Shown in pieces: positions 7,134-61,210 of a stretch of DNA of 64,000 nt. Made by a program: the position numbers and the translations under genes. Location of the stretch: the sequence record OZ346175.1; one strand, written 5' to 3'. Every line of letters starts with the position of its first letter. Position 1 is the first letter of the stretch. A model generated the notes under the pieces. The model did not search any database, was not told the DNA's origin, and saw only the letters and a list, made by a program, of their open reading frames with translations. This DNA is from a phage.

Positions 7134-7661
7134 TCAACTTAGTTTTGCAAACTCTCCGTGGAGTTTAATAGCAGCTTCACAGTAAGCTTTATGGGCTTCT
7201 TCAGGTGTGTCATGGTAACCTAAAAACATCTTCTTACCTTTATAACTTATCTGTGCGACCCACTTACCAGACTTCTTCTTCAGGCTTACACCCTTATAGC
7301 CTGATTTATTGGTGGATAGTTTGCTTTTATTCCAAGCACTTTGGTAGTCATCTGCTTCTCTTAAGTTTACAATCCTGTTATCAAGGGAGTCTCCATTAAT
7401 ATGGTCAATAACACCTTTCGGCAACCTACCATACATGTACAGCCATGCGAGTCTGTGTGCTTTATGTGCTTTCTTGTCAAAATAGATAGTAATCTGCTTA
7501 TGACCAGTTGAGTCAATCTGGATGCTCCCCGCTACCTGTCCTGCGTACTGACTATTAAAAACTTTAACAGCCTTTGAGTCGCCCTCTCTACGAAGCCAAG
7601 TAAAGACCCCTGTTTCGGGGTCATAGTGTAGTAGTTCCTTTAAACGTTCTTTTGTAATCAT
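7134..7661 (-). CDS. HNH homing endonuclease with AP2-type DNA-binding domain
   Basis: HNH region (HINGDSLDNRIVNLR) plus AP2-like segment (YKGVS...GKWVAQI...GYHDTPEEA); free-standing immediately downstream of intron-containing polymerase gene. Confidence 0.8.
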   Translation of the reverse strand: MITKERLKELLHYDPETGVFTWLRREGDSKAVKVFNSQYAGQVAGSIQIDSTGHKQITIYFDKKAHKAHRLAWLYMYGRLPKGVIDHINGDSLDNRIVNLREADDYQSAWNKSKLSTNKSGYKGVSLKKKSGKWVAQISYKGKKMFLGYHDTPEEAHKAYCEAAIKLHGEFAKLS

Positions 7662-7671
7662 TTTGTCACCA

Positions 7672-8228
7672 TTAATGCACTTCCAACCACGATTTACCAA
7701 CCTTTGCTGTACCAGTTACAAGTGTTTCTTTCCTCAAACCTAAGTTTTTTGAAGCTTGTCCATACATCCAGTCAGCAATTGCTTTCATATCATGTGTCAT
7801 ACCCTCTGGACATTCCCAACTATTTTCATCGTGATATGCCAGAAGTAACCTTGCTCCGATAGCTGGTTTTCGAGCATTCAGTTTTGTCAGGCCATCTTCA
7901 CAGGCTTTTCTTGCTGCTAGGTTGATGGCCTCATTCTGAATCTGTGCTTCCGAACTCATCAGGAGGTAGTTCAGTAGTTTATGTGGAGATTTGCACCATA
8001 TCCATGCTCCAGCGACCCTGATATAACCACCTTTAGCAATTGAAGAATTCTTCCCAAAAACCTCTTCCAGAGCCTTTTTAGACGCCTTAAAATCGGCTTC
8101 TAAGCTATCAAGTAACTTCTTAATCTTTGGCAGACGCATATAGTAAGTTTGTTTAGTTAATGCACCTTCCTCTGTAGAAGCTGCCTTAATGGTTTTGGCA
8201 AACTTCTCATCACCTGCACCGAACAATA
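7672..8228 (-). CDS. DNA polymerase, family A (T7 gp5-like), exon 2
   Basis: Begins LFGAGDEK (second half of motif B), contains YHDE motif C, ends ...SWLEVH like family-A polymerases. Confidence 0.9.
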
Positions 8229-8496
8229 CATCTGGTCAATACACTCGCAAGGTGTACCAGTTCTCTTATGAACTTCTCCGCATTTCTACGGAGTGTCGGA
8301 CTATATCACGTAGTAGTAATACTACCGTTGCACTTGGGAATGGTCATTGGCTTACCACCCTACTCTACTCAGTTCATACGTTAAGTATGCTTTTCGATAG
8401 TCTCTGAACGTTCCTCTTAAGAGGCTTCGCTGCTGATTACCATATCTTTACAGACTTAGGCTTCCAGCAATTCACAACGTTTTACATGCGCCACTG
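8229..8496 (-). mobile_element. group I self-splicing intron (ORF-less) in DNA polymerase gene
   Basis: Minus-strand P (aattgctggaag), Q (aatcagcagcg), R (gttcagagacta) and S (gatatagtcc) elements; exon ends in U pairing with gcgcau guide just inside intron; intron ends in G; splicing restores IYALLFGAGDEK. Confidence 0.85.
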
Positions 8497-10639
8497 ACGC
8501 ATAAATGCCATTTTTGGCTTTCTTACGACCTTTTGTAATCTCGTGGAGAAGTTCCTCATCCTGTGTCTCCCTACAACGAACAATATCTTCTTCCTTGTTC
8601 AGACCAAAGTAAATACTGTTCAGTGTATGCGCATCAGTCCCTGTGTAGACTTCATAGAGGTCGTTCTCAGCATCATAACGAAGATACTTGTCAGTTTCTG
8701 GATTAAGGTGCTTATCAAGATGTTTGCAATAATATCTCCCATCTTCTTGCTTGGTAAATTCTACTGACTCTTTACCTTCAGTTACTGCTTTAGTGAACTC
8801 TTTATCACCCATAAAGTTACACAGTAAAACAAGCTGTGCAGAGTTCTGGTCAACAGAAACAATGTTAGTCCCCTCTTCACAAATCCACACTGCCCTCATA
8901 GGTGCTCCATAGACAGCAGCACCAGACGGTACGTTTACAATACCATATTGTGTCATACGTCCAGTTGAAGTACCAAACACCATTGCACCAGCACTAAGGC
9001 GACCATCAGGACGAATCTGGTTCAACCAACCTTTTTCATCATCCTTTGAGTTCTCAATAGTTCTGCGTCGGTGCATCAAAGTATAGTACTTAGCAATCTT
9101 CTGTCCAAGCTCACCTTCAATCGTATCATAAGATGATTCAGTAAGTTTTGGTGAAGTACGGATTAAGCAAGGCTCAAGCAAATCTGTGTACTTCTTCACA
9201 GACCAGTTATGCTCAATGTACTGTACACCTTCATGTTCAACATAACTCAAACCACACCGCTCAACCATTTCCTGCCACTTAGGATGTTTTGTAATCATCT
9301 TTTTATTGTCTTTGAAACGACAAACTTTGACAGGGCGACCATCTGAATCTTTCTTGTAGTTCCAGTCATCTGGAATCCAACCAACTGATTTCAAGTAGTC
9401 TTTAACAACTGCTACCTGAGTCATATGAGAAACTTCAAACTCAATTGGTGTATATGGTGCATCAATCAAACCTGTGTAGCGACTTGACTCAAGTTCAAAG
9501 TGATTGACAACGTGACTGTTATAGTACTTCACAGTCTTGACTGTTTTTACTGGTTTCCAGTCTTTGCATTTTTTGCCAATCTTTGCATTCAACTCGTTGC
9601 AGATTGCACGAGCATCCTTCATCGCTACAAAACCCTCTTTGTACTCTTCACCAGTTACAGAGTTGGTTGGTGTATAGCAATTTCTCTTTTCAATGTTAAA
9701 AATCTTTGTAGTTGGCTTACCAAATGGCTTGATTTCATATGTCTGCATCTCACCATTACGTACCTGCTGACGATACTTTGTCTTAGGGTACTTGGTAATT
9801 CTTTTCAGTCCATCTGCATGACCAAATGCTTCAACATACTCATTCCAAGCTTTTGCAAACTCTTCTCCAGTGACTTTACCTTTGGTCTTAATAGTTGGAG
9901 GTAGATGTGGTTCAACCTCTGAAGCAAGCTCATTAGTCAACTTGTCAAGCTCCTTTACATGGAACTCCATAAGCTCTTTATCAGCTTTCCAACCATTGAT
10001 AGCTTGTTGACTCATCCAGAAAGATGTTTCTTTAGCTCGCATGTAAGTTTCATAAGTGTCTATGCCACACTTCTTAAGCTTGAGATACTCGTTATCAAGT
10101 GCCCGTTTAGTTTTGGCGTTAATACGGATATCTTCTACAACACGAGTGAAGATTTCTGCATTCCACACACCCCAATGCTCAATCTCTGGCTTACGAACAC
10201 CAACACGAGCACCCCATGCAGCCAAGCCATGAGCACCTTTATAACCCTTTGGAGTTGGTCTATCCATCCACTGAACACGAGACTGGATAAGAGAATCCTG
10301 AAAGAAATTACTCCACGGCTTACACTTTGGATTATCAAAGTTCCATAAATCAGGTGCAATGTGATTAAAAACCCACCAGTCATAACCGAGACCGTTATGG
10401 ATGCAAAGACGTTTTGCCTTTAACGCAAATTCAACACCTTCACGTAAGCCACCCTTAATGTACTTGGTATACTTGTGACCGAGGATAGGTTCATCCGTAA
10501 AGACCCATACAGGTGGCTCTTCATCGTCAGATTTATAGTCTGCGAAAGCCATTACGTGCACTTTAGTGAACTCAAGGAGTAAACCATCAGTTTCTGTATC
10601 ACCAACTAAATGTAAGTTTTTAAAATCTACGTTTTCCAT
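8497..10639 (-). CDS. DNA polymerase, family A (T7 gp5-like), exon 1
   Basis: N-terminal 3'-5' exonuclease motif DTETDG, T7 gp5-like blocks, ends in first half of motif B (RKKAKNGIYA); start at MENVDF with GAGGGAG RBS. Confidence 0.9.
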
Positions 10640-10702
10640 TTTTACTCCCTCTAAAATCATTAACCTCATACATTACTGCAAAAAATTATAAAAAGCAAGT
10701 TG

Positions 10703-10727
10703 ACAATGCACTTGACAAGGTGTTAAT
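10703..10727 (+). promoter_or_regulatory. conserved tandem TTGACA element (putative promoter/operator)
   Basis: gttgacaatgcacttgacaaggtgt; near-identical 25-mer recurs at 56041..56065, core acttgacaaggtg also at 26454..26466. Confidence 0.4.
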
Positions 10728-10896
10728 CTTTGCGAAGTGGGTTTTTACTTAAAAGGTTACTTAACAGTTTAACTATACAGATACTTTAAAACTCTTAAAA
10801 GATTATTTAATAGCTTTTAAAAAGCTTTAAAGTATAACGTATAGAATACGTTAAGATAAAAGATTAAAACTTAATAGTTACTTAAAAGAGGCTTAC

Positions 10897-16507: not shown

Positions 16508-17554
16508 ATGGAGAAGTACACATTAACAAAGCTTCCCGATTCAGTTACACATGTCTTTATTGACTCTGACAGTATTGCCTATAAAGGTGCTTGTGTAGTT
16601 GAGAAAGCAAAATATAAATATGTCAATAAACTCACAGCAGAAGAATCTGATTCGTTTGATAATGCGAAAGATGCTGCAAGATGGTTAGCAGACCAGAGAA
16701 TCCTTGTGGAAGAACTTGGCCTGACATTTGATGAAGATGAATGGGAAAGACAGACTTGGAAAGAAGCTAAGAGTGAAAAAGAAGCTATCATGGCTACTCA
16801 ACAGGTTCTTCAGGAATGGCTTAAGGTTGTTGGTAAAGAGAGAACTTGGGTAGGCTATTTAACAGAGAAAGGTGTGCATAAGCATAAAGACATTAAAGGT
16901 CTTGAGCACCAATATCAAGGTAACCGTAAAGATGCTGTCACACCAACACACTTAGTTGCTTGTCGTGAGTATCTTCTGTCAAGACCAGAGTTCAAACTAA
17001 TTCTTGATGGATTTGAAGCCGACTCTATCGTTATTGCTAAAGCTGAAAAGATGGGTAAAAAGGCTGCCTTAATGAGTATTGATAAAGACCTTCGCCAAGC
17101 TGAAGGGACTTACTGCATTGATATGACCTATGAAAAGTCACCTTTGATTTTCATTGCTGATAACAACGTTGGTGAAATTTGGGATTGCCCAATAAAATCG
17201 ACACCAAAAGCTAAGAAGACAGTTGGGGTAGGTTTTAAATTTCTTTGTTACCAAGCTGTGGCTGGTGATAATGCTGATAATTATTTTGGTTTAAAGGGCG
17301 TTGGTAAGGCTACTGTAATGAAAGCTCTTGAAGGTAAAACCACCTACAAAGAGTGTCTTGATGCAATTTATGAGCTTTATGCTAAGAAAGAGTCATACAC
17401 TTATGTCTCGTGGGATGGTCAAACAATTACCAGAACACCTTTAGAGTTAATGCAGCAACACTTTTTCTTAGCTTATCAGGAAAGAAACAAGAAAGACGAT
17501 TTTACTTTTGATAAGTATGGGTGGACACCAAATGTTAACTCAACAAACTCTTAA
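16508..17554 (+). CDS. 5'-3' exonuclease / flap endonuclease-like protein
   Basis: 348 aa; acidic-cluster N-terminus (HVFIDSDSIAYK) and position next to SSB/primase genes. Confidence 0.55.
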   Translation: MEKYTLTKLPDSVTHVFIDSDSIAYKGACVVEKAKYKYVNKLTAEESDSFDNAKDAARWLADQRILVEELGLTFDEDEWERQTWKEAKSEKEAIMATQQVLQEWLKVVGKERTWVGYLTEKGVHKHKDIKGLEHQYQGNRKDAVTPTHLVACREYLLSRPEFKLILDGFEADSIVIAKAEKMGKKAALMSIDKDLRQAEGTYCIDMTYEKSPLIFIADNNVGEIWDCPIKSTPKAKKTVGVGFKFLCYQAVAGDNADNYFGLKGVGKATVMKALEGKTTYKECLDAIYELYAKKESYTYVSWDGQTITRTPLELMQQHFFLAYQERNKKDDFTFDKYGWTPNVNSTNS

Positions 17555-18023
17555 AGAGTACCTACATTATGACCCCGAAACAGGGGTCTTTACTTGGATT
17601 AAGAAATCTGCTAGACACACAAAAATTGGCTCTGTTGCAGGTACAAACTTAAGAGGGTATACCAGAATTTATTTGTTTGGTAAGGGCTATTATGCACATA
17701 CCCTAGCCGTTCTGTATATGGATGGATACCTACCTGAGTGTGTTGACCATAAAAATCATGTAACACTAGACAATCGCTGGGTAAATCTTAGGGCATGTAC
17801 GTTATCAGAGAACCAATGTAATAGGTTGCTCAATAAGAACAATAAATCAGGTGTTAAAGGTGTGTACTACAAAAAACAGTATGGTAAGTGGTCTACACAG
17901 ATAACTTTTAAGAAGAGGGTCTACTTCTTCGGCAACTATGACACTATTGATGAAGCAGCAGAGGTTGTAAATAGGGAACGTCAACGTTTACACAAAGAGT
18001 TTGCTAATAAAGGTGATGAATGA
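17508..18023 (+). CDS. HNH homing endonuclease with AP2-type domain
   Basis: Paralogous to 7134..7661 (LHYDPETGVFTW..., VDHKNHVTLDNRWVNLR, GVKGVYY...GKWSTQI); likely starts at internal Met. Confidence 0.8.
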   Translation: MISMGGHQMLTQQTLKEYLHYDPETGVFTWIKKSARHTKIGSVAGTNLRGYTRIYLFGKGYYAHTLAVLYMDGYLPECVDHKNHVTLDNRWVNLRACTLSENQCNRLLNKNNKSGVKGVYYKKQYGKWSTQITFKKRVYFFGNYDTIDEAAEVVNRERQRLHKEFANKGDE

Positions 18024-18520
18024 GAAAAATAAAAGGTTTTGGCAATTGCCCTGAATATGGACATTGGGTTTCACTATGTGGTGAAGTTGACCCAGCAAAG
18101 CACTTTGGTTTTGTCTACCTAGTGTACTGCAAAAAGACTGGACAGTACTATTTGGGTAAGAAACAGTTTAACAGTGTGACCAAAAGAAAAGTTGCTGGGA
18201 AGACTCGGAAGAAGATAGTCACTAAGGAAAGTGATTGGATGACTTATGAGACTTCTTCTGAGTATATTAAAAAAGATATTGAGAGTTTTGGAAAAGAATT
18301 TTTTGACTTTTACATTATTCAGACCTACTACACAAAAGGTGGCCTAGCCTATGGTGAAGCAAACCTTCAACATAAATTCGATGTAATGACAAAAAGGATT
18401 GACTCTAAGCTCAGACTCTTCTACAATGCCAATATTGCAGCAATTAAGTTTATCACTAAAGAAACTTATGAAGATGCTGAAAAAAGAATCCATAAGGTCA
18501 TGAAAGCAAATTGTGCTTGA
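18020..18520 (+). CDS. putative GIY-YIG-like endonuclease
   Basis: N-terminal FGFVYLVY...TGQYYLGKK resembles GIY-YIG motif; weak call. Confidence 0.4.
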   Translation: MRKIKGFGNCPEYGHWVSLCGEVDPAKHFGFVYLVYCKKTGQYYLGKKQFNSVTKRKVAGKTRKKIVTKESDWMTYETSSEYIKKDIESFGKEFFDFYIIQTYYTKGGLAYGEANLQHKFDVMTKRIDSKLRLFYNANIAAIKFITKETYEDAEKRIHKVMKANCA

Positions 18521-24306: not shown

Positions 24307-26451
24307 ATGAACAAAGTACAGATTATTAAAAAGAATGGCTCACTCGAAGAACCTGATATCAAAAAAGTTTTAGCAGCAGTCACAAAGTCAGCTAATAGGG
24401 TTGGGTATAAAGAACTTCCACCAGATGTTACCCAAGCTCTTGAGTCAGCATTTATGAGGATTCTGGTAAAATCTACTAAGCAGAATAATTTACTCATTTC
24501 AGTAAATGATATTCACAGTATTGTTGAGGGTGCTTTGGCAGAAGTCAATCACGAGATTTATGAGTCTTACTCAACATATAGAAATTACCGTAAAGAGGTT
24601 GCTCAAAATTGGGACGAGCTTTACCAAAAGACTAGGGATACACTCTTCTTAGGTGACCGTGAAAATGCTAACTTTGACAGTAGTTTAATTTCTACAAAAG
24701 GCTCAATTATTCGTGGTTACTTGACTAAAGAAATCTTTAAACAGTACCATTTAACACCAGAGGAACTTGAAGCCATTGAAAAAGGGTTTATCTACATCCA
24801 TGACTTAAGAGACCTAATTTTTGGTGGTATCAACTGTTGCCTGTTTGACATCGGCAAAGTACTGAAAGGTGGCTTTGAAATGTCTGGTATCGAATATTGT
24901 GAACCAAAGTCTGTGCTGTCAGCCTTACAGGTTATTGGTGATGTAGTTCTTTCAGCAACTGCACAGCAATTTGGTGGCTTTACTTTAGCAGAGATTGATA
25001 AGGTACTTGTGCCGTATGCTAAAAAATCTTTAGTGTACCACTCAGAGAAAGCTGAAGAGTACGGAATCCCTAAAGAGCAACACTATAATTACGTAATGGA
25101 GCAATTACAGAATGAGTTAACACAAGGTTTCCAATCTCTTGAAATGAAACTCAACACTGTTCCTTGCAGTCGCGGTGATTTTGCATTTACTACTCTGACA
25201 TTTGGCCTGTTGGAACCAGATATGCACAATGAAGATAACCGTCTTCAGTTTATGATTGCTAATACAATCCTTAATGTAAGGATGAACGGGCAAGGGAAAA
25301 GCAAAAAACCTGTTGTTTTTCCTAAACTTGTGTATATCTATGAAGAGACAAGACATAAACTTGATGTATGCCAAGCAAGGTTGTTTGAAAAAGCTATTGA
25401 GTGTTGCTCTAAAGCGATGTATCCAGATTTCTTAAGTGTATCTGGTCATGGTGCTGTAGCAGATGCTTTTGAGCGTTCTGGTAAGGTGATTTCACCGATG
25501 GGTTGCAGAGCTTTCTTGTCTCCATATCTTAACGAGAATGGGGAAGAGTTCTATGTAGGTCGTGCTAACATTGGTGCTGTATCTTTGAACTTGCCAATGA
25601 TTTACCAGTATTCTAAAGAGAATGGTTTAGATTTCTGGAAAGAGCTTGATAAGTACCTAGAGATGATTCGCAGCTTCCACAAGAAACGCTACGAAATGAT
25701 TGCTAATATGCCAGCAAGCTCTAACCCTCTTGCATTCACACAAGGTGGCCTGTACAAAGGGACTAAGAAATCTACCGACAAGGTTGGCTGGGATATCGTG
25801 AAGTCCTTCACAGCTTCTTTTGGAGTTACTGCGCTTGATGAGCTATCTGTTCTTGCTGAAGGTAAACGACTTCATGAAGTTGGGAGCTATAGTTTTGCAT
25901 ACGATGTTCTGGCATACATCAACATGAAGACTGAAGAGTTTAAAAATGAAGATGGCTTCTTATATGCAGTCTATGGCACTCCAGCAGAATCACTTTGTGG
26001 AACTCAGCTAAAACAGTTCAGAGATATGTTTGGCGTTATCAAAGGCGTTTCTGACAAGGAATACTTTACAAACAGTTTCCATATGAATGTTGCAGCAGAT
26101 ATTACACCATTTGAGAAGCAGGACTTAGAAGAGCCATTCTTCCATATCTGTAGAGGTGGCAGAATCCAGTATGTCAGGGTAGCTAACCCAGAAAACTTAA
26201 CAGCACTTAAGAGTTGTATTACAAGAGGGATGTTGAAAGGTTTTTATCAGGGACTTAACTTTGACCTAGCAATTTGTGAGCATTGTGGTAGCAGACCAAA
26301 GGCTGATGTTGAAGAATGTGAGGTTTGCCATTCACATGATATCTCTGTGATTAACAGGGTGTGTGGGTATCTTGGGTGGACTAAGATTAAAGGTGAATCA
26401 CGAATGAACGATGCAAAAATTGCTGAGATTCGTGATAGAGTCTCTATGTAA
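24307..26451 (+). CDS. nrdD: anaerobic ribonucleotide reductase (class III)
   Basis: 714 aa; C-terminal Cys4 cluster (CEHCGS...CEVC) and glycyl-radical motif RVCGYLG. Confidence 0.9.
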   Translation: MNKVQIIKKNGSLEEPDIKKVLAAVTKSANRVGYKELPPDVTQALESAFMRILVKSTKQNNLLISVNDIHSIVEGALAEVNHEIYESYSTYRNYRKEVAQNWDELYQKTRDTLFLGDRENANFDSSLISTKGSIIRGYLTKEIFKQYHLTPEELEAIEKGFIYIHDLRDLIFGGINCCLFDIGKVLKGGFEMSGIEYCEPKSVLSALQVIGDVVLSATAQQFGGFTLAEIDKVLVPYAKKSLVYHSEKAEEYGIPKEQHYNYVMEQLQNELTQGFQSLEMKLNTVPCSRGDFAFTTLTFGLLEPDMHNEDNRLQFMIANTILNVRMNGQGKSKKPVVFPKLVYIYEETRHKLDVCQARLFEKAIECCSKAMYPDFLSVSGHGAVADAFERSGKVISPMGCRAFLSPYLNENGEEFYVGRANIGAVSLNLPMIYQYSKENGLDFWKELDKYLEMIRSFHKKRYEMIANMPASSNPLAFTQGGLYKGTKKSTDKVGWDIVKSFTASFGVTALDELSVLAEGKRLHEVGSYSFAYDVLAYINMKTEEFKNEDGFLYAVYGTPAESLCGTQLKQFRDMFGVIKGVSDKEYFTNSFHMNVAADITPFEKQDLEEPFFHICRGGRIQYVRVANPENLTALKSCITRGMLKGFYQGLNFDLAICEHCGSRPKADVEECEVCHSHDISVINRVCGYLGWTKIKGESRMNDAKIAEIRDRVSM

Positions 26452-26805: not shown

Positions 26806-27197
26806 TTAAGTTGAACAAAAAACAGTTAGAGTGGATTAAAGATTACGCCTCAGAGTGTGGCTCTTGCGAAAAGAGTCACGTAAGATATTCAATATTCCAT
26901 ACAACCTTCACATTGTATATCAGTGACAACGTTCTAAGTGATTCCGTAGAAGACGGTGTAGCATTAACTAATGAGTTACTTGATAAACTAGCTGTAGTCA
27001 CTGGAACTTGGTCTGAAGAAGACGGTCATGAATTATCTGACAATGTTGTCTTCTACACCATTGAAAACATTATGAACCCAGAGTATATTGCACTCATGAC
27101 TTGTGCACAAGACTGTGTGCTCTTACAAGACTTCATTAAAGAGCACTGTGAAGAGTTTATTACTAAATATGTTCCTTGTCAGGTGGTGTTTGAATGA
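26802..27197 (+). CDS. hypothetical protein
   Basis: 131-aa ORF with ATGA overlap. Confidence 0.45.
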   Translation: MIKLNKKQLEWIKDYASECGSCEKSHVRYSIFHTTFTLYISDNVLSDSVEDGVALTNELLDKLAVVTGTWSEEDGHELSDNVVFYTIENIMNPEYIALMTCAQDCVLLQDFIKEHCEEFITKYVPCQVVFE

Positions 27198-27493
27198 GTA
27201 AAACAATTCGAAGAAAAGGTTTAAAGAACGTTCACGGACTCTATGAGTGGAGAAATGAGGTACGTAACAGAGAAAATGCTTCAGATGTCTACTTCCATTC
27301 TGATATGATGTCCAGAAAAGGTGGCTCTTATGACTTTACAAGTCAGCCTTGTAGAGAGATTAAGAAGGTTACTAAACGTCTTACAAGAACACAAATCAGG
27401 CAGCTTTCTAAGACATCCTTCTTAGATGAGGACTTTGACATTGACAGCAAGTCTCCAAAGAAAGCTGCTCAGAACACTTATATGTATTGGTGA
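27194..27493 (+). CDS. hypothetical protein
   Basis: 99-aa basic ORF. Confidence 0.45.
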   Translation: MSKTIRRKGLKNVHGLYEWRNEVRNRENASDVYFHSDMMSRKGGSYDFTSQPCREIKKVTKRLTRTQIRQLSKTSFLDEDFDIDSKSPKKAAQNTYMYW

Positions 27494-28882: not shown

Positions 28883-29398
28883 ATGTACCTGTCAAATCTG
28901 AAACGTTCTGCTGCAATGTCAGTGTTAAGACTCAGTTTTGAGGAACGTCAAGAGTTCATTGACTCCCACCAATACGACCCTTCTAACTCCAATCACATGA
29001 TTCTCTGGAATCGTGACAGTACTCGTGAAAGAGCACTATTCCGTTACTACCCACATTACACCATAGACAAATTGTATGAATGTTTTGTTGTGAAGAACAC
29101 CATTACAGTACTCAATAAACTTTGCAGATACACAGGTAGTCAATCCTTCACATTAGGCCACCACAAACCCGTTACAAAGGGTGGTGAGCATCACTGTGCA
29201 AACTGGTTTATCCAGACTAAACTTGATAACCAGAAGCAAGGGGATAACCTCCTAAGCACACCTAAGATGACCTATGAAGAGCAAGAGAAATATATCAAAA
29301 ATAATATGCCAGATGTGCTTGACAACAACTATACAGATTTGGCAATATCTCTCCTGTTGAAGTTCGAGACAGTTTATAGGGCAACTTACAATGGCTAA
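28883..29398 (+). CDS. putative HNH endonuclease
   Basis: HNH-like segment LGHHKPVTKGGEHHCANW. Confidence 0.5.
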   Translation: MYLSNLKRSAAMSVLRLSFEERQEFIDSHQYDPSNSNHMILWNRDSTRERALFRYYPHYTIDKLYECFVVKNTITVLNKLCRYTGSQSFTLGHHKPVTKGGEHHCANWFIQTKLDNQKQGDNLLSTPKMTYEEQEKYIKNNMPDVLDNNYTDLAISLLLKFETVYRATYNG

Positions 29399-29680: not shown

Positions 29681-30562
29681 ATGAAAACTGTTATTGAAGC
29701 CGTCGTCACCGCTCAAGAGAAATTCTTCCACACAGAAAAATTTAATATCATTCAATTCCCATCTGGAGAGATTGGTGGAAACTTCTCTGAAGATTTTGTT
29801 AAGTTTACTGAGCGTAATGCTGGTAAGATTGATAATGTTATAATTACTGTACAGGGATATGACAAAGATACACTGTTTGCATTAGCTTTGGCTAAGGATG
29901 CCGTTGACAGTCTTGTTCCCCAGAAATCAGCGATGAAAACCGTTGTTTTCGGGTTCTTACCAAATGCTCGATATGACCGCCACATGTTCAAAGGTGATGC
30001 AGCAGCACTGAAAGTCTTTGCCAACCTAGTTAATGCAATGGGTTTTGATGCAGTATGTGCTCTTGACCCTCACAGTAATGTTGCAGAAAACTTATTTAAG
30101 TGCTTTCAAAGCATGAAGCAAAAAGATGTGGCAGTACACTTTGCAAGTGACCCACGCATTGATTTCTTGGTAGCCCCAGATGCAGGTGCAGCTAAGAAGA
30201 CTGAAGATACCGCTAAAGAGGTGGATAAACCGTATATCACAATGTCTAAGGTGCGCAATCTTAAGACTGGAGAAATCACTGGTATGCGAATCCTTGACGA
30301 TGTTGATTTGACCGATAAAACTGTCATGATTCTTGATGATATCTGTGATGGTGGTCGAACCTTCGTAGAGGCAGCTAAACACCTACGTGAAGCAGGTGCA
30401 AAACGTGTGGAACTCTATGTAACTCATGGTATTTTCTCTAAAGGTGTTGAAAACTTGCTTGACAACGGTATTGACCATATCTACACTACAAACACTTTAG
30501 GTGAAGCTAAAGACCGTGGCTTAACACATTACGCCCAAGTTACTGTAGCAACCATTGATTGA
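29681..30562 (+). CDS. prs: ribose-phosphate pyrophosphokinase (PRPP synthetase)-like protein
   Basis: PRPP-binding motif MILDDICDGGRTF and ALDPHS segment; start set at MKTVIEAV; directly upstream of NAMPT. Confidence 0.6.
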   Translation: MKTVIEAVVTAQEKFFHTEKFNIIQFPSGEIGGNFSEDFVKFTERNAGKIDNVIITVQGYDKDTLFALALAKDAVDSLVPQKSAMKTVVFGFLPNARYDRHMFKGDAAALKVFANLVNAMGFDAVCALDPHSNVAENLFKCFQSMKQKDVAVHFASDPRIDFLVAPDAGAAKKTEDTAKEVDKPYITMSKVRNLKTGEITGMRILDDVDLTDKTVMILDDICDGGRTFVEAAKHLREAGAKRVELYVTHGIFSKGVENLLDNGIDHIYTTNTLGEAKDRGLTHYAQVTVATID

Positions 30563-30572
30563 AACTTTATAG

Positions 30573-30594
30573 GGGCTTGAAAGCCCCATTTTGA
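30573..30594 (+). terminator. rho-independent terminator
   Basis: ggggctt-gaa-aagcccc hairpin followed by T-rich tract. Confidence 0.5.
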
Positions 30595-41897: not shown

Positions 41898-42410
41898 ATG
41901 AAAACTGTAGACGCTACCTTTGAAGTTGTAAAAGAAAAATTCACCATTATTTATGAAGCTGTCAATTGCTTTGAAGCAAGCCATAATCTTGATAATTGGA
42001 AGTTTACAGATGACCATCAAGGCGGTGTGACGATTAAAAATCCTAACTGTCAGCGTAATGATTTTAAATATGCAATCCCTTTACATTACAGCCTTAAACA
42101 GCTTTCTAGTGACTATGCAAAACAAGGCCGGGAAAATCCATCAAAAGAGGCTTACGCAAGCTTACAGAAAGAACTAGAAAGAGATTTAGAGGCTTCAGAG
42201 TACAACCTTGCCGCGAAAGTTGTGGATGCAAACGGTAACACGGTTTTAGAAAGTTTTTATCTTGGTTATGCTTTCGATTGGTGCTATCGTGACGGTGAGG
42301 ATTTAGAAGATAGACTAAAAGAAGAGGTGAGCAATTCAGACGCAGAGGCTGAAGTATTAGAACGTTTGGAAGCATTAAAAGATTCAGTGATGAATATCTT
42401 TAAGAACTAA
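41898..42410 (+). CDS. hypothetical protein
   Basis: 170 aa; cassette-preceded; acidic C-terminus. Confidence 0.5.
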   Translation: MKTVDATFEVVKEKFTIIYEAVNCFEASHNLDNWKFTDDHQGGVTIKNPNCQRNDFKYAIPLHYSLKQLSSDYAKQGRENPSKEAYASLQKELERDLEASEYNLAAKVVDANGNTVLESFYLGYAFDWCYRDGEDLEDRLKEEVSNSDAEAEVLERLEALKDSVMNIFKN

Positions 42411-46894: not shown

Positions 46895-46932
46895 ACGCCG
46901 CAACGGGGCTAAATAGCCCCAGATACCTTTAC

Positions 46933-46955
46933 AGCCCCTTAAATGGGGCTTTTTT
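46933..46955 (+). terminator. rho-independent terminator
   Basis: agcccctt-aaat-ggggct hairpin followed by TTTTTT. Confidence 0.6.
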
Positions 46956-46965
46956 ACGTCTTATC

Positions 46966-48570
46966 AAACCCCTTATACAACCCTTTCCCTTTCCTTTCCT
47001 TTCCTTTCCAGAATCTTATCAGACCTTAAAAAGCAATAACTTTACAGCCTTTTACTAAGTCAATTAATTGGCCTTATTAATAAGCCCTTAAACATAAGCC
47101 AATAACCCCAGAAAGGGGGCAACCCATTTAAACGCCATATAAAGCCCTATAACGGCCTTTTTAACCTAACTTAAGGGATTGCATTACCTCACCCTTAAAA
47201 GCCCTTTATAAAGCTTCACAGAGCCTTAAAAGAATCTTATAAGGGTGTAAGCTTTATTATCTCGTTAGCTATCTTGTGAACTACTAAACAACCCCCTTGA
47301 TAGTAACTGAAAAGTATGTTATAGGGGCTTTAAAGTTACTTTGAAGTAGCTTAAAAGTTACGTAAATGCTAGCCCCCTTAACATTTTCTTAACAATTTCT
47401 TAACAAACTCTACATAGTTATGCTTGTTAGGGACTTGTTAGCCCCTTGTTAAATCTCTGTTACAACCATGTAAAAGCCTTGTAAGAGTCTTTGACATAGC
47501 CTTTAAAGCCCCTGTAAAGCCCTATAAAGAGCTTTCTACATAGTTGGGGTGTAATTACTAGGAAGAGGCTTAAAAGAGCTTACAAGGAGCTATAGAGAGC
47601 TTTTAAGAGGTATGTTAAGAGAATCACTAAGAGGGAAAGGGAACGATAAGAAAAGAGATAGTGACCATGTAATAGCTTGTTAAAAAGGTTAAACACTTGT
47701 TAGGAACTTGTTAATTGTCTTAACAAAATAACCCTTTAAAATTAACTTGTTAGCTCTTGTTAGTCATCTGTTAAGCATCTGTAAAGACTATTCAGCACTT
47801 GTTAATTGGTATTGTTACCAATCCCTAGAAAACTGTTAAGCCCTTGTTAGTTCTGTTAAGAAACTGTTAAGACCTTTGAAGAGTTGTTAAGAAGATGTGA
47901 GAGCTGTTAAGAGATTGTTAAGGATATTTTAAAATTTTGCAAAGTACTTGTAAGGGAGTTGTTAAGGGCTACCAAGCAGATATACATCCTAATCAGATAT
48001 TTTTCAGTTCCTTCAAAGACCCTAAAAAATGACTTGATAGTCCTATTTTATAAAAATTTTAAGATTCTGAATAATTACCTAGACAGTCTTTTAAAAATAC
48101 AGGTAATAACAGGCTTATAAGATACCTTGTTAGTACCGTGTTAGACCTTGTGAGATAAGGTCTGTAAAGATATTCCTGTTAAGTTTGTTAAAACAGTCTA
48201 TATAGAGGCTTAGTAATACCTAGTGAACACCTATAGAGAGTCACATAGCTAACCTAGAGATTAAGAGGTGTATAGGAGCTTCTAAGAGTGTGTAGAGAGA
48301 TGATTAAGGTGATTGTATAGGTTGTTTAGAAGGCTTGTTAGAAGAGTGTTTAGAGGGCTATTTAGAAGGGCTATACAGAGGGCTATTAAGACCACTAGAT
48401 AGTTACTAAGATACTATATAGTACTATATAACTATATAGAGAGTAAGATTAAGAAGGTTGTTAAGGAGGATAGATACTTTGTTCACATATGATGGTGGCC
48501 CAGAGGTTGGGACAACCGATAAAATTTTATAAAAATTAAAAAGCCCCCAATTAAGGAGGCTCTTAAGATA
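46966..48570. repeat. ORF-free repeat-dense region between convergent transcription units
   Basis: No ORF of 60 aa or more in any frame; (CCTTT)n tract near 46980-47010; more than 20 copies of (c)ttgttag/(c)tgttaag around 47395-47930; gggctat(t/a)(t/c)aga(a/g)g and ctatata repeats around 48300-48450. Confidence 0.7.
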
Positions 48571-49167: not shown

Positions 49168-49600
49168 ACTTGTTGTTGTTGTTCTTAATGAGGTCTTCTT
49201 CTGTTACTAAGAATGTAAGACCACACAAGTGTGTGTAGTGGCTATCATACTCAAATATTTTAAGTAAATATTTACCATCATGGTAAACAAATTCTACTAC
49301 ACCTTTTGCAACAATCTTTCCAGTCTTGAAGTCTTTAAGGCGGTATACATTACCAACTTTAGGAACTGTTTTCATCTCAGGTTCTTTTAGTTTCTCACCA
49401 ACTTCTACATCACCTAGTAAGTTAGAACTTTCAAAAGCTGCATGTTTCATATAAGCTTCTGAGCATTCCCAGATAAAGCAACTTACAAGAACCTTAGCAG
49501 CATGTCTTGAACAATTCAGCTTATCACAAATCTCTATGTACATTTCATGTTTAGTTGAATTGTTAAGCATGGCTTTTTGAACGACTTCTTTAATTTTCAT
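49136..49600 (-). CDS. hypothetical protein
   Basis: 154-aa ORF. Confidence 0.45.
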   Translation of the reverse strand: MKIKEVVQKAMLNNSTKHEMYIEICDKLNCSRHAAKVLVSCFIWECSEAYMKHAAFESSNLLGDVEVGEKLKEPEMKTVPKVGNVYRLKDFKTGKIVAKGVVEFVYHDGKYLLKIFEYDSHYTHLCGLTFLVTEEDLIKNNNNKFAVPDYQVLR

Positions 49601-50018
49601 AAGCTCTCCGAATAACCCTATTAAGCATCTCTAAAGTCAGCTTTCCAGATTCTAAATGTGGCATAATGAGCTTTAAAGCTTCTTCAACATCATGCACAAC
49701 ATCTATTATACCTTCTTCATAGGCTTCTACAAGGATATCTTTTACATTTTGTGATTTACCTTTTTGTGGTATCACTAGACGCATATCAAACTCATTTGCT
49801 TGAGGATGGTTCTTACCACGCCAGAAACCGTCCTTATCAAAGCTTATAAAGTTATCCTCATTAAAATTAATACCACAAACCTTAAACTTATCTAAAACTA
49901 TGCAGTTGAGAGGGTAATCATCACTTGCATCATTCATTCCAAGAAACTTAACAGTAGCTATATACCTCTGTGTCTTTGCATCTACAACGTCAAGCTCTTT
50001 ACCTATAAGTTCTTTCAT
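49590..50018 (-). CDS. hypothetical protein
   Basis: 142-aa ORF. Confidence 0.45.
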   Translation of the reverse strand: MKELIGKELDVVDAKTQRYIATVKFLGMNDASDDYPLNCIVLDKFKVCGINFNEDNFISFDKDGFWRGKNHPQANEFDMRLVIPQKGKSQNVKDILVEAYEEGIIDVVHDVEEALKLIMPHLESGKLTLEMLNRVIRRAYEN

Positions 50019-58808: not shown

Positions 58809-58813
58809 ATAAA

Positions 58814-59035: not shown

Positions 59036-59038
59036 TTA

Positions 59039-59170: not shown

Positions 59171-59171
59171 T

Positions 59172-59315: not shown

Positions 59316-59319
59316 TAAT

Positions 59320-59395: not shown

Positions 59396-59399
59396 ATAT

Positions 59400-59476: not shown

Positions 59477-59477
59477 A

Positions 59478-59553: not shown

Positions 59554-59568
59554 ATTTCAATAAAGTTG

Positions 59569-59597
59569 TTGACATTGAGATGTGACTACTTTATAGT
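59569..59597 (+). promoter_or_regulatory. sigma70-type promoter internal to tRNA cluster
   Basis: TTGACA-N17-TATAGT. Confidence 0.5.
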
Positions 59598-59798
59598 AAC
59601 CTTAGTTTTCGTTGCGTAGCGTCTATTTTGCAAATTTAAAATAAATGCAAACGACAATGTTTTTCTGGCAGTAGCTTGATAGGCTAAACACCAGTGAGGT
59701 CTTCCAATCCCTCATCAAAGAATTTGGCGTACTCGCCCACGGTATGATTAATAAGGTGGGCATCTTTAAGGGCTTTCTAAGAGAGTCTTTAAAGATAA

Positions 59799-59876
59799 TG
59801 CACCCTTAGTTCAATTGGATAGAGCAACGGTCTTCTAAATCGTTAGTTACAGGTTCGAATCCTGTAGGGTGTACCA
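59799..59876 (+). tRNA. tRNA-Arg (anticodon TCT)
   Basis: Acceptor gcaccct/agggtgt, D-arm gttc-aattggata-gagc, anticodon stem acggt/atcgt, loop ctTCTaa, T-arm acagg-ttcgaat-cctgt, CCA encoded. Confidence 0.75.
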
Positions 59877-60018
59877 AATAGTTAGCAGATTACTTAGACG
59901 GCCTTAGCGGGTCTTCCTGTAGGGAGGTGGTCTGTATCTCATGTTTTCCAGAACATGTAAATAATCTGAGAAGAAGCTTGACAGTGTTGAGATAACAGGG
60001 TAAGCTTCGAATTATAAT

Positions 60019-60101
60019 ATGGGACGATGTTAAGACTCTAAGGCATGAGCAACGGCCTCCAAAACCGTTTCAAAGGGGTTCAACTCCTCCGTCCCATGCC
60101 A
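60019..60101 (+). tRNA. tRNA-like gene, probable Trp (anticodon CCA), atypical D region
   Basis: Acceptor atgggac/gtcccat, anticodon loop ctCCAaa, T-loop ttcaact, CCA encoded; D region about 7 nt longer than canonical. Confidence 0.45.
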
Positions 60102-60114
60102 AAGTCTTATTAGG

Positions 60115-60202
60115 GGTAGGTAGCGGCTAATGGCAGCCAAACAGTCTTGAAAACTGTTGCCACTGTAGAGATACGGTGAGGGTTCGACTCCTTTACTTAC
60201 CG
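60115..60202 (+). tRNA. tRNA-Ser (anticodon TGA)
   Basis: 88 nt with long variable arm; anticodon stem acagt/actgt, loop ctTGAaa; T-arm gaggg-ttcgact-ccttt; CCA not encoded. Confidence 0.7.
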
Positions 60203-60458
60203 CCTAATAAGATTTACTCCGTCCATGCTTGTTCGCATTGTCGGTTTATCCCTCGTGTATTGTCGTACACTGTCAAAGCACCTAGTAGGTGTCACGGAGA
60301 AGAGATAATATCAAGCTCTCCAAAGGTTCTAGTCACCGGATTAAACAAGACTATGCAAAGACCTATTTAGGTCTTTTTAGAGGGCTTCTAAGGTTATTAG
60401 TCGCTTGTTGTGGAACCTTGTTGCTCAGGTTCTTAGAAGTTCTCTAAAAAGATTTAAT

Positions 60459-60536
60459 GGGAGATTGACGGTAATTGGTAAACCTACCATCCTTAGAAGT
60501 TGGTGTTTGAGGGTTCGAATCCCTTGTCTCCTACCA
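60459..60536 (+). tRNA. tRNA with apparent anticodon TAG (Leu-type) on short-variable-arm scaffold
   Basis: Acceptor gggagat/gtctcct, anticodon loop ctTAGaa, T-arm gaggg-ttcgaat-ccctt, A73, CCA encoded; no long variable arm. Confidence 0.45.
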
Positions 60537-60543
60537 AATTAAT

Positions 60544-60619
60544 GCAGGTGTAGCAAAATGGTTATGCGGCTGACTCTTAATCAGTAAGACGATGGGTTCA
60601 ATTCCCTCCACCTGTACCA
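60544..60619 (+). tRNA. tRNA-Lys (anticodon CTT)
   Basis: Paralog of 59320..59395; acceptor gcaggtg/cacctgt, anticodon stem gctga/tcagt, loop ctCTTaa, T-loop ttcaatt, CCA encoded. Confidence 0.6.
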
Positions 60620-60625
60620 GACATC

Positions 60626-60702
60626 GGGGTCATAGTTTATATGGTTAAAATTCGAGTTTTGCAAACTTGGGAACTGAGTTCAATTCTCAGTGACTCCACC
60701 AA
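60626..60702 (+). tRNA. tRNA-Ala (anticodon TGC)
   Basis: Acceptor ggggtca/tgactcc, anticodon stem cgagt/acttg, loop ttTGCaa, T-arm ctgag-ttcaatt-ctcag, CCA encoded. Confidence 0.7.
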
Positions 60703-60708
60703 TTAGTG

Positions 60709-60781
60709 CATCCATAGTTTAAACGGGAAAATTACAGTCTTCCAAACTGAGGTTGAGGGTTCGATTCCCTCTGGATGCTCC
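60709..60781 (+). tRNA. tRNA-Gly (anticodon TCC)
   Basis: Acceptor gcatcca/tggatgc, anticodon loop ctTCCaa, T-arm gaggg-ttcgatt-ccctc. Confidence 0.65.
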
Positions 60782-60796
60782 AAATTAAGGTGTGAT

Positions 60797-61210
60797 ATGA
60801 AAATATGCAGTACTTGCAGAATACCAAAAGATGAAAGCTTATTCCATAAGAATAAGAACAAGAAAGATGGTCTTCAAAGTCAATGCAAAGACTGTGCAAG
60901 ACTTCGTGATGCAAAGAGTTATCAAGCAAATGATAAAAGGAAAGAGGCTATTAAAAGCACTCGTAACTTCAAGAGAGAGTATAACAAGACTCTAGCTAGA
61001 AGGTACAAAGCTTTATGCAAATGTCATATATGTGGTGAGAAAGAACCAGTTGCATTGGATTTACACCATACAGACCCTTCCCAGAAAGATTTGAATCCTG
61101 CATCACTTTATTCATACTCCACAAAAAGATTAAAAGATGAAATCAGAAAGTGCATTGTCTTGTGCGCTAACTGTCACAGAAAAGTACATGCTGGTATCAT
61201 AAAAGTTTAA
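60797..61210 (+). CDS. HNH endonuclease inside tRNA cluster
   Basis: 137 aa; zinc-binding Cys pairs and HNH motif (LDLHHTDP...CANCHRKVH); flanked by tRNA genes. Confidence 0.75.
   Translation: MKICSTCRIPKDESLFHKNKNKKDGLQSQCKDCARLRDAKSYQANDKRKEAIKSTRNFKREYNKTLARRYKALCKCHICGEKEPVALDLHHTDPSQKDLNPASLYSYSTKRLKDEIRKCIVLCANCHRKVHAGIIKV

What the first reader, a model, noticed from the sequence alone, without database searches (positions are those of the whole stretch)
7134..61210. High density of homing-endonuclease-type genes
Two paralogous HNH-AP2 genes (7134..7661 beside the intron-containing polymerase; 17508..18023 after the exonuclease gene), a GIY-YIG-like ORF (18020..18520), an HNH ORF after the nrdG block (28883..29398) and an HNH ORF between tRNA genes (60797..61210). 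The endonuclease beside the polymerase intron is outside it, an arrangement compatible with collaborative homing.
Basis: partly seen in the sequence, partly recalled or inferred. Interest (0 to 1): 0.5.

Follow-up and report, generated by a model that had tools for sequence, protein, structure and literature searches.

The report
Homing endonuclease genes in Felix O1-like phage
This stretch of a Felix O1-type phage genome carries three selfish, mobile endonuclease genes, a self-splicing intron in its DNA polymerase gene and two conserved nuclease-like genes; this load is already known for the phage group, and the endonuclease beside the intron most likely moves on its own rather than carrying the intron with it.

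Summary
The window is a Felixounavirus (Felix O1-like) genome segment. All five ORFs exist at the stated coordinates.

- **Domain support.** Four have significant nuclease-domain hits. The fifth (28883..29398) shows only an HNH-like motif.
- **Mobile genes.** Three behave as mobile homing endonuclease genes, with clean presence/absence at fixed sites among roughly 250 close relatives: HNH-AP2 after pol (7134..7661), HNH-AP2 after the exonuclease (17532..18023), and a zinc-ribbon HNH between tRNA-Gly and tRNA-Thr (60797..61210).
- **Conserved genes.** The GIY-YIG ORF and the 28883 ORF are conserved single-copy genes across the subfamily, so they are not sporadic insertions.
- **Intron.** The polymerase intron is real (Rfam 64 bits). 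I mapped it to 8229..8496 (268 nt, no ORF).
- **Collaborative homing.** The arrangement fits, but the comparative data do not favour it:
  - The same intron carries its own Endonuclease VII-type gene in relatives.
  - The 7134-type gene sits beside intronless polymerases in at least 13 genomes.
  - The ORF-less intron occurs with other endonuclease alleles.
  - The cassette entered a divergent phage lineage with only about 24 nt of polymerase.

Endonuclease turnover or loss fits better. High endonuclease load is already published for this genus, so interest is modest.

The parts
7134..7661 (-). Free-standing HNH-AP2 homing endonuclease gene ('HEG1'). The cassette absent from phage LinBro is 7138..7670, inserted directly after the polymerase stop codon.
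   Evidence: Pfam HNH_3 plus AP2; PHROG 99 E=1e-74. Absent, present or replaced by 47-54% identical alleles in relatives.
7672..8228 (-). DNA polymerase (family A) exon 2, stop codon included.
   Evidence: DNA_pol_A hit; alignment to intronless alleles.
8229..8496 (-). Group I intron, 268 nt, no ORF. The P6a hairpin CCUCUUAAGAGG sits at 8412..8423, where relatives carry a roughly 535-nt Endonuclease_7 gene insertion (between 8417 and 8420).
   Evidence: Rfam RF00028 64.2 bits. Exact boundaries come from intronless alleles: the 5' exon ends in U and the intron ends in G. Intron variants are aligned.
8497..10669 (-). DNA polymerase exon 1. Splicing restores ...KNGIYA|LLFGAGDEK...
17532..18023 (+). 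Free-standing HNH-AP2 homing endonuclease gene ('HEG2'), paralogue of HEG1. The cassette 17519..18015 is absent from LinBro. It overlaps the end of the exonuclease gene and the start of the GIY-YIG gene.
18020..18520 (+). Conserved SegE-like GIY-YIG domain protein, widely mislabelled 'NAD synthetase'. It is not sporadic.
   Evidence: PF19835 E=2.3e-27. Single copy in 741 phage records, including all Ounavirinae and many cyanophages.
28883..29398 (+). Conserved Ounavirinae protein with an HNH-like motif (GHH..KGGEHH..NW..Q...DN). Its nuclease identity is unproven.
60797..61210 (+). Free-standing zinc-ribbon HNH homing endonuclease gene filling the tRNA-Gly (60708..60782) to tRNA-Thr (61212..61288) spacer. 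It is a roughly 425-nt insertion.
   Evidence: PHROG 2255 E=4.7e-41; tRNAs; present in 15 of 254 relatives; boundaries.
25504..25504 (+). Empty site in nrdD. LinBro has a 741-nt insertion carrying an HNH gene here.
30561..30593 (+). Empty site between the ribose-phosphate pyrophosphokinase and nicotinamide phosphoribosyltransferase genes. LinBro has an HNH-AP2 gene here.

Best explanation
The window comes from a Felix O1-like myovirus with the usual load of selfish endonuclease genes for its genus.

Three compact cassettes are free-standing HNH homing endonuclease genes: after the polymerase gene, after the exonuclease gene, and between two tRNA genes. By analogy with characterised phage endonucleases (inferred), each cuts the empty version of its own site in a co-infecting relative and is copied in during repair, together with a few tens of bases of flanking gene.

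The polymerase gene carries a 268-nt self-splicing group I intron with no gene of its own. It is a stripped-down form of an intron that, in sister phages, holds an Endonuclease VII-type homing gene in the P6a loop.

The endonuclease gene just after the polymerase is most likely an independent element. It homes into the junction between the polymerase stop codon and the intergenic region, where several divergent alleles replace one another. The pairing 'ORF-less intron plus neighbouring endonuclease' therefore reflects endonuclease loss and turnover plus tight linkage, not an obligate partnership.

The GIY-YIG gene and the 28883 gene are conserved core genes, probably fixed or domesticated nucleases, and are not currently mobile.
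For: Shown here:
- **Identity.** The window is a Felixounavirus, 93-95% identical to many phages.
- **Clean presence/absence against LinBro.** The window has 7138..7670 and 17519..18015. LinBro instead has an Endonuclease VII gene in the intron, an HNH insert in nrdD, and an HNH-AP2 gene between prs and NAMPT.
- **Frequencies among relatives.**
  - The 7134 allele with both flanks is in 46 of 234 records.
  - The 17532 allele is in at most 19 of 245, with many clean 485-nt absences.
  - The tRNA-spacer gene is in 15 of 254.
  - The 28883 gene is in 224 of 254, including other genera at 74-75% nucleotide identity.
  - The GIY-YIG gene is single copy in all Ounavirinae, at 62% in Erwinia phages, and in cyanophages.
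- **Intron states.** There are three forms: with ORF (801-805 nt), a 311-nt form that keeps both flanks of the ORF insertion, and the minimal 268 nt. The P6a stem shows a compensatory T-A to C-G change. The intronic protein hits Endonuclease_7 at E=6e-20.
- **Cross-tabulation.**
  - The 7134-type gene occurs with the ORF-less intron in 33 records and with an intronless polymerase in 11 records.
  - It also sits beside an intronless polymerase in the two SUSP-type loci (L010, L012).
  - It occurs with the ORF-containing intron in none of the 60 best-matching records.
  - The ORF-less intron occurs with the 48% and 52% alleles as well.
- **Allele-specific polymerase ends.** Each downstream allele brings its own last roughly 20 nt of the polymerase gene. 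The window and the SUSP-type phages share 24 nt of polymerase plus a 94% identical endonuclease gene, while polymerase exon 2 is only 79% identical.
- **Shared 3' ends.** Divergent alleles share an identical C-terminal 24 residues, which is a plausible recombination arm.

Literature:
- Felix O1 has six HNH genes (PMC3185647).
- Endonuclease insertions and deletions are the main differences among these phages (PMC3728262).
- The turnover alternative to collaborative homing was proposed in PMC10448857.
Against: - No cleavage site was determined for any of these enzymes.
- The 7134-type gene and the ORF-less intron do co-occur more often than the overall intron frequency would predict: 33 of 44 records, against 96 of 218 records with the intron overall. 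The 7134-type gene was not seen with the ORF-containing intron among the 60 best-matching records. That is what collaborative homing would predict, although tight linkage (570 nt) and shared ancestry also explain it.
- The direction of change, ORF loss or ORF gain, is inferred from a three-state series and is not proven.
- All 7134-type proteins have Ser where the other alleles have the Asn at 21 residues after the catalytic His. Their catalytic competence is therefore uncertain.
Confidence: 0.7

Rival explanations
1. Collaborative homing. The 7134..7661 HNH-AP2 enzyme cuts intronless polymerase alleles at the intron insertion site, so repair copies both the ORF-less intron and the endonuclease gene 570 nt away. 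The enzyme's own genome is protected because the intron interrupts the target.
For: - The layout matches the described cases (PMC3984707, PMC10448857).
- 33 of 44 records with the 7134-type gene carry the ORF-less intron, and none of the 60 best-matching records carries the ORF-containing intron.
- ORF-less introns sit in exon contexts with variable co-conversion tracts (window versus L001 and L027). This suggests the intron spread after it lost its ORF.
- Genomes with the 7134-type gene and an intronless polymerase have an insertion-site sequence that differs from the consensus of the divergent clade.
Against: - At least 13 genomes have the 7134-type gene next to an intronless polymerase. The Felix O1-clade insertion-site sequence they carry is also found with a different allele (L015, Felix O1 L021), so it is clade-specific rather than carrier-specific.
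- The exon differences fixed in intron-bearing alleles (TATGCGT|TATTG) are the ones needed for P1 and P10 pairing with the intron guide sequence CAGUGGCGCAU. This is my reading of the sequences.
- The cassette entered the SUSP-type lineage with only 24 nt of polymerase and without exon 2.
- The ORF-less intron occurs with other endonuclease alleles.
- The intron has a dedicated Endonuclease_7 gene in relatives.
Confidence: 0.15
2. The direction is reversed. The 268-nt ORF-less intron is the ancestral form, and the Endonuclease VII gene later invaded its P6a loop in some lineages. On this view the window shows the pre-invasion state rather than a degenerated one.
For: - Endonuclease invasion of ORF-less introns is the consensus origin of mobile introns (PMC3984707).
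- The insertion is a clean block in a terminal loop.
Against: - The 311-nt variant (GEC_vB_NS7, L020) retains the extended stem and both flanks of the ORF block, including sequence resembling the ORF's last codons. That looks like a deletion remnant.
- The minimal form lacks the extended stem that both other forms share.
Confidence: 0.25
3. The GIY-YIG gene and the 28883 gene are active homing endonuclease genes that have simply gone to fixation in this subfamily.
For: - The GIY-YIG domain matches the SegE family.
- Some GenBank records label both genes as homing endonucleases.
Against: - Both are single copy, syntenic and conserved down to 62% (Erwinia phages) or 74-75% nucleotide identity in other genera.
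- GIY-YIG homologues are also conserved in hundreds of cyanophages.
- The 28883 family has only 19 clusters among 5.8 billion proteins.
- No DNA-binding domain was detected in either.
Confidence: 0.1

Closest known systems
Felix O1 and 'Felixounalikevirus' HNH endonuclease load (Whichard 2010, PMC3185647; Moreno Switt 2013, PMC3728262)
   Same: - Same genus.
- Six HNH genes were reported in the 86 kb of Felix O1.
- Endonuclease insertions and deletions between or inside conserved genes were reported as the main differences among relatives.
   Different: Felix O1 was reported to lack introns, and I confirmed its polymerase is intronless. The window has a polymerase intron and a different set of occupied sites.
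Collaborative (trans) homing: ORF-less intron plus a free-standing endonuclease. Described for the DNA polymerase gene of T7-like phages and the psbA gene of cyanophage S-PM2 (Bonocora & Shub 2009; Zeng et al. 2009; as summarised in PMC3984707 and PMC10448857)
   Same: [quoted passage not shown] A free-standing HNH-type endonuclease gene lies immediately beside the gene.
   Different: - The defining property, that the enzyme's target is the intron insertion site, is untested here.
- Co-occurrence is not strict.
- The intron has its own, unrelated Endonuclease VII-type gene in sister phages.
Endonuclease-turnover model and 'HEG islands' near essential genes; the IPA-HNH/AP2 class (Barth et al. 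2023, PMC10448857). HNH-AP2 endonucleases (Magnani et al. 2004, cited there)
   Same: - N-terminal HNH plus C-terminal AP2 architecture.
- Location next to the DNA polymerase gene.
- Cognate sites occupied by divergent alleles.
- A proposed loss of the intronic endonuclease with gain of a free-standing one.
   Different: - The two genes here hit the canonical Pfam HNH_3 model rather than the divergent ICP1-type domain.
- The Felixounavirus polymerase locus shows the intermediate states (ORF-containing, remnant, minimal intron) side by side.
T4 free-standing seg/mob genes and 'intronless homing' (Edgell et al. 2010, PMC2988022)
   Same: - Compact cassettes sit between conserved genes.
- Distribution among relatives is sporadic.
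- Short stretches of flanking gene are co-converted.
   Different: - The families differ: T4 seg genes are GIY-YIG, whereas the mobile ones here are HNH.
- The one SegE-like GIY-YIG gene here is conserved, not sporadic.
Endonuclease genes in phage tRNA clusters: T4 SegB and the T5 tRNA-region HNH enzymes (from my own knowledge, not checked here)
   Same: An endonuclease gene fills a spacer between tRNA genes. Homologues of 60797..61210 lie next to tRNA genes in several unrelated phages.
   Different: It has no detectable close sequence relation to those enzymes, and its target is unknown.

Membership tests
Group I intron | Match to the group I covariance model at or above the curated threshold | tested here: met
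   RF00028 scores 64.2 bits against a gathering score of 50.
Group I intron | 5' exon ends in U (U.G pair in P1), and the intron ends in G | tested here: met
   Exon ...AUGCGU pairs with intron nt 6-11, GCGCAU. The intron ends ...CCAGAUG. This is read from the sequence.
Group I intron | Precise removal restores an uninterrupted, conserved reading frame | tested here: met
   Removing 8229..8496 gives KNGIYALLFGAGDEK, identical to intronless relatives.
Group I intron | Self-splicing of the RNA | not testable with these tools
   Needs RT-PCR or in vitro splicing.
Free-standing HNH(-AP2) homing endonuclease gene (7134..7661, 17532..18023) | HNH nuclease domain plus a DNA-binding domain | tested here: met
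   HNH_3 and AP2 in both; AP2 matches solved plant AP2 domains.
Free-standing HNH(-AP2) homing endonuclease gene (7134..7661, 17532..18023) | Sporadic presence at a fixed site among close relatives, with clean empty sites | tested here: met
Free-standing HNH(-AP2) homing endonuclease gene (7134..7661, 17532..18023) | Intact catalytic and metal-binding residues | tested here: inconclusive
   The DH and NLR motifs are present in both. All 7134-type proteins have Ser at His+21, where the other alleles and 17532..18023 have Asn. The role of that residue is recalled from I-HmuI and was not checked here.
Free-standing HNH(-AP2) homing endonuclease gene (7134..7661, 17532..18023) | Site-specific cleavage of the allele that lacks the gene | not testable with these tools
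   Needs an enzyme assay.
Collaborative homing pair (intron plus 7134..7661) | ORF-less intron with a free-standing endonuclease gene adjacent to the same host gene | tested here: met
Collaborative homing pair (intron plus 7134..7661) | The endonuclease target coincides with the intron insertion site | not testable with these tools
   Needs cleavage mapping.
Collaborative homing pair (intron plus 7134..7661) | Intron and endonuclease gene are inherited together, with the conversion tract spanning both | tested here: not met
   - 11 records plus 2 SUSP-type loci have the gene without the intron.
- At least 6 records have the ORF-less intron with other alleles.
- The SUSP-type transfer tract stops 24 nt into the polymerase gene.
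GIY-YIG (Seg-like) homing endonuclease (18020..18520) | GIY-YIG catalytic domain | tested here: met
   PF19835 E=2.3e-27.
GIY-YIG (Seg-like) homing endonuclease (18020..18520) | Sporadic distribution or empty sites in relatives | tested here: not met
   Present and syntenic in essentially all relatives; single copy in 741 records.
HNH endonuclease (28883..29398) | Significant match to an HNH profile or fold | tested here: not met
   - No Pfam HNH hit at E<=10.
- PHROG 2214 only at 2e-4.
- PDB profile search and Foldseek gave no nuclease hit, and the model pLDDT is 62.
- Only an invariant HNH-like motif remains.
HNH endonuclease (28883..29398) | Sporadic distribution | tested here: not met
   224 of 254 records, including other genera.
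HNH homing endonuclease (60797..61210) | HNH domain | tested here: met
   PHROG 2255 E=4.7e-41. Pfam HNH is only 17.4 bits against a cut-off of 21.4. The motif is visible.
HNH homing endonuclease (60797..61210) | Sporadic distribution with a clean empty site | tested here: met
   15 of 254 records. The empty site is a 7-nt spacer in phage nataliec.

The most novel reading that the evidence does not exclude
The 7134..7661 enzyme really does cut intronless polymerase alleles at the intron insertion site. If so, Felixounaviruses would be a natural, easily cultured E. coli and Salmonella phage system in which all the proposed stages of mobile-intron evolution coexist among near-identical genomes:
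- intronless polymerase;
- ORF-less intron plus a free-standing endonuclease;
- intron with an internal endonuclease gene;
- a remnant of that internal gene.

The origin and decay of mobile introns could then be tested directly by phage crosses.
Probability: 0.15. Interest if true: 0.55.

Novelty: new member of a known kind. Interest (0 to 1): 0.3.

Why it matters
Mainly for annotation and for choosing experiments.

**Annotation**
- Two of the 'endonuclease-type' genes are conserved core genes and should not be treated as mobile insertions.
- One of them is propagated through GenBank under the wrong name 'NAD synthetase'.
- The polymerase in many deposited genomes is split into two CDS by an unannotated intron.

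**Experiments**
- The polymerase locus of these easily grown phages holds several states side by side: intronless, ORF-less intron, remnant intron and endonuclease-containing intron. Each is combined with at least four divergent downstream endonuclease alleles or with none.
- This makes it a convenient natural test bed for deciding between collaborative homing and endonuclease turnover.

**Phylogeny and engineering**
- Endonuclease-driven gene conversion around these sites also matters for phylogenies and for engineering Felix O1-type biocontrol phages.

Tried and rejected
- **Fold of the 28883 protein.** AlphaFold on a 15-sequence alignment gave pLDDT 62. Foldseek against the PDB gave nothing below E=0.7. 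A few Cas9 HNH domains appeared among the noise and were not used.
- **PDB searches with the same protein.** Sequence and profile searches hit only protein A repeats at its N-terminus. The per-domain E-values are 0.5-2 and the total is inflated by the repeats, so I treat this as a curiosity.
- **Rfam scan of LinBro.** The scan found no intron at the gathering threshold, probably because the roughly 535-741-nt ORF insertions break the model. Absence of a hit there is not evidence of absence.
- **Minimum-free-energy folding of the intron.** It was uninformative (z=-1.7) and did not recover P1.
- **IMG/VR scan with polymerase exon 2.** It returned only 16 loci, so frequencies rest on the GenBank phage collection.
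- **First idea: intronless Felix O1-clade alleles were recoded to resist cleavage.** Rejected as the main explanation. The same sequence occurs in Felix O1 itself and with different endonuclease alleles. The differences fixed in intron-bearing alleles are the ones needed for P1 and P10 pairing, with variable co-conversion tracts beyond them.
- **Relation between the intronic Endonuclease VII-type protein and the tRNA-spacer HNH.** They are not detectably related (E=0.14).
- **Variable ORFs relative to LinBro.** 27194..27493, 41898..42410 and 49590..50018 have no nuclease signal.

Full report
**What the window is.** A 7-kb stretch around the polymerase gene is 93-95% identical to more than 150 Escherichia, Salmonella and Shigella phages of the genus Felixounavirus. 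The window also holds 26 tRNA genes, nrd genes, thymidylate synthase and the other genes typical of Felix O1.

**The five ORFs.** All five are at the stated coordinates.
- **7134..7661(-).** It has HNH_3 (E=1.6e-15) and AP2 (E=3.6e-12) domains. Its AP2 part matches solved plant AP2/ERF domains.
- **17508..18023(+).** It has HNH_3 and a weaker AP2 domain. It most likely starts at the ATG at 17532. It is 42% identical to the first gene, so the two are paralogues.
- **18020..18520(+).** It matches SegE_GIY-YIG (E=2.3e-27).
- **60797..61210(+).** It is sub-threshold for Pfam HNH but matches PHROG 2255 'HNH endonuclease' at E=4.7e-41, and it shows a zinc-ribbon plus HNH motif.
- **28883..29398(+).** This is the weak one.
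  - There is no Pfam HNH hit even at E<=10 and only a faint PHROG hit.
  - PDB sequence and profile searches found nothing relevant.
  - The AlphaFold model is of low confidence, and the fold search found nothing significant.
  - The family alignment shows an invariant FTLGHH..KGGEHH..NW.IQT..DNQ.Q block, which reads like an HNH motif. That is a reading of the sequence, not a test.

No further endonuclease genes or remnants were found. I checked with a Pfam scan of 106 ORFs, with tblastn using eleven endonuclease proteins from this genus, and with PHROG searches of the ORFs that vary against the closest relative.

**The polymerase intron.**
- Rfam finds a group I intron between the two polymerase ORFs (64.2 bits against a gathering score of 50).
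- Alignment with intronless relatives fixes it at 8229..8496 on the minus strand, 268 nt.
- The 5' exon ends in U and the intron ends in G. Removal restores ...KNGIYA|LLFGAGDEK..., a conserved polymerase motif.
- Reading the sequence, exon AUGCGU pairs with intron GCGCAU (P1, with U.G at the splice site). Exon 2 UAUUG pairs with intron CAGUG (P10).
- Every intron-bearing allele has TATGCGT|TATTG at the junction, whatever its wider exon background.

**Are the genes sporadic?** I queried the GenBank phage collection with each gene plus short flanks.
- The 7134 allele with both flanks occurs in 46 of 234 matching records. Others have divergent alleles or nothing at that site.
- The 17532 allele occurs in at most 19 of 245. 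Many records show a clean 485-nt absence, and some carry a different allele, including Felix O1.
- The tRNA-spacer gene occurs in 15 of 254. In phage nataliec the tRNA-Gly to tRNA-Thr spacer is 7 nt. The insertion supplies a ribosome-binding site and the ORF, and it reuses the resident TAA as its stop codon.
- By contrast, the 28883 gene is present in 224 of 254 records, including other Ounavirinae genera at 74-75% nucleotide identity. Its family has only 19 clusters among 5.8 billion proteins.
- The GIY-YIG gene is syntenic in essentially all relatives and single copy in 741 phage records. These include Erwinia phages (62% identity) and hundreds of T4-like cyanophages, mostly under the label 'NAD synthetase'.

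Three genes therefore behave as mobile cassettes and two as conserved core genes.

**A close relative with the complementary pattern.** Phage LinBro is 94-99% identical to the window where the two align. It lacks both HNH-AP2 cassettes; the window-specific blocks are 7138..7670 and 17519..18015. LinBro instead has the following:
- an 'endonuclease VII' gene inside the polymerase intron;
- a 741-nt HNH-bearing insert in nrdD, at window position 25504;
- an HNH-AP2 gene between prs and NAMPT, at window 30561..30593.

This is the pattern already reported for the genus. Felix O1 has six HNH genes (PMC3185647), and endonuclease insertions and deletions are the main differences among relatives (PMC3728262).

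**Collaborative homing or not.** The layout matches the published cases (PMC3984707). Four observations argue against an obligate partnership.

1. **The intron has its own endonuclease in relatives.** In GEC_vB_B1, LinBro and DE7, an Endonuclease_7-type gene (E=6e-20) sits in the P6a terminal loop.
   - GEC_vB_NS7 has a 311-nt intron that keeps the extended stem and both flanks of that insertion.
   - The window has the minimal hairpin CCUCUUAAGAGG, with a compensatory T-A to C-G change in the stem.
   - This three-state series looks like progressive loss of the internal gene, though the direction is inferred.
2. **The 7134-type gene occurs without the intron.**
   - It sits beside intronless polymerases in 11 records among the 60 best-matching hits.
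   - It also does so in the two SUSP-type loci, where the polymerase is only 79% identical but the endonuclease is 94% identical.
   - It occurs with the ORF-less intron in 33 records and with the ORF-containing intron in none of those 60.
3. **The ORF-less intron occurs with other alleles.** It is found with the 48% and 52% alleles as well.
4. **The recombination boundary is at the polymerase stop codon.**
   - Each downstream allele brings its own last roughly 20 nt of the polymerase gene.
   - The window and SUSP-type phages share exactly 24 nt of polymerase, the intergenic 10 nt and the endonuclease gene, but not exon 2.
   - Endonuclease-free genomes share a different terminus...TGGCTTGAAGTACAC TAA TTAGTATTGACA.
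   - The divergent alleles (47-54% identical) all end in the same 24 residues, TPEEAHKAYCEAAIKLHGEFAKLS. DNA identity extends 80-146 nt into the 3' end of the gene, which is a likely recombination arm for allele replacement.

Together these fit the turnover hypothesis proposed as an alternative to collaborative homing in PMC10448857.

**What still favours collaboration.**
- The intron is enriched among carriers of the 7134-type gene: 33 of 44 records, against 96 of 218 overall.
- Identical 268-nt introns sit in exon contexts with different co-conversion tract lengths (window versus L001 and L027). This suggests spread after the ORF was lost.

Tight linkage, shared ancestry and ordinary recombination also explain both observations. 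I put collaborative homing at about 0.15.

**A caveat on activity.** All 7134-type proteins have Ser where the other alleles and the 17532 paralogue have Asn, 21 residues after the catalytic His. From my recollection of I-HmuI, that Asn binds the metal ion. I did not verify this here.

**Verdict.**
- The interpretation 'many homing-endonuclease-type genes' holds for three of the five genes.
- The collaborative-homing idea is possible but is not the best-supported reading.
- The phenomenon is known for this genus. The polymerase locus is a new member of a known kind and a convenient system for experiments.

Noticed in passing
window 47389..48464, within the ORF-poor stretch ~46900..48570: 26 of the window's 80 YTGTTAR heptamers fall in this 1.1-kb intergenic region, between the end of the plus-strand gene block and the start of a minus-strand block. 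They often sit at 11-nt spacing and occur in both orientations. This is an iteron-like array, possibly a replication origin or a binding region for a regulatory protein.
   Followed up: partly
window 18020..18520: This conserved GIY-YIG protein is annotated 'NAD synthetase' in many GenBank phage records, including cyanophages. Pfam gave only the SegE_GIY-YIG hit for it, so the label looks like a propagated misannotation.
   Followed up: partly
window 28883..29398, residues ~11-53: The N-terminal segment LSFEERQEFIDSHQYDPSNSNHMIL resembles the repeat unit of the staphylococcal protein A IgG-binding domain ([24 protein letters not shown]). Per-domain E-values are only 0.5-2, and the low total E-value is inflated by the repeats in the target.
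   Followed up: partly
window 60797..61210 and hits H360, H361, H371, H387: Homologues of the tRNA-spacer HNH protein lie next to tRNA genes in unrelated phages: crAss001 (tRNA-Gly), Pseudomonas M5.1 (tRNA-Gly), Salmonella NINP13076 (tRNA-Lys) and Haloarcula HCTV-16 (tRNA-Gln). This suggests a recurrent association of this HNH family with phage tRNA clusters.
   Followed up: no
window 7134..7213, and L004, L018, L020, L021 and other loci: At least four HNH-AP2 alleles downstream of the polymerase gene are only 47-54% identical overall, yet they share an identical C-terminal 24 residues and a nearly identical 3' DNA end.
   Followed up: partly
L011 (IMGVR_UViG_2706796270), end of the polymerase gene: This endonuclease-free genome carries the polymerase terminus TGGTATGAGGTACAC, which is otherwise associated with endonuclease-bearing alleles. 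It is followed by the empty-site sequence. It may be a footprint of endonuclease loss or a resistant site.
   Followed up: no
window 27194..27493, 41898..42410, 49590..50018: These three ORFs are absent or replaced in the close relative LinBro. All belong to PHROGs of unknown function and none has a nuclease signal.
   Followed up: partly
window 17470..17554 and 7672..7720: The last 30-50 nt of the exonuclease and polymerase genes, next to the two HNH-AP2 cassettes, are much more divergent between carriers and non-carriers than the rest of those genes. The exonuclease's last ~8 codons are supplied by the cassette itself.
   Followed up: partly
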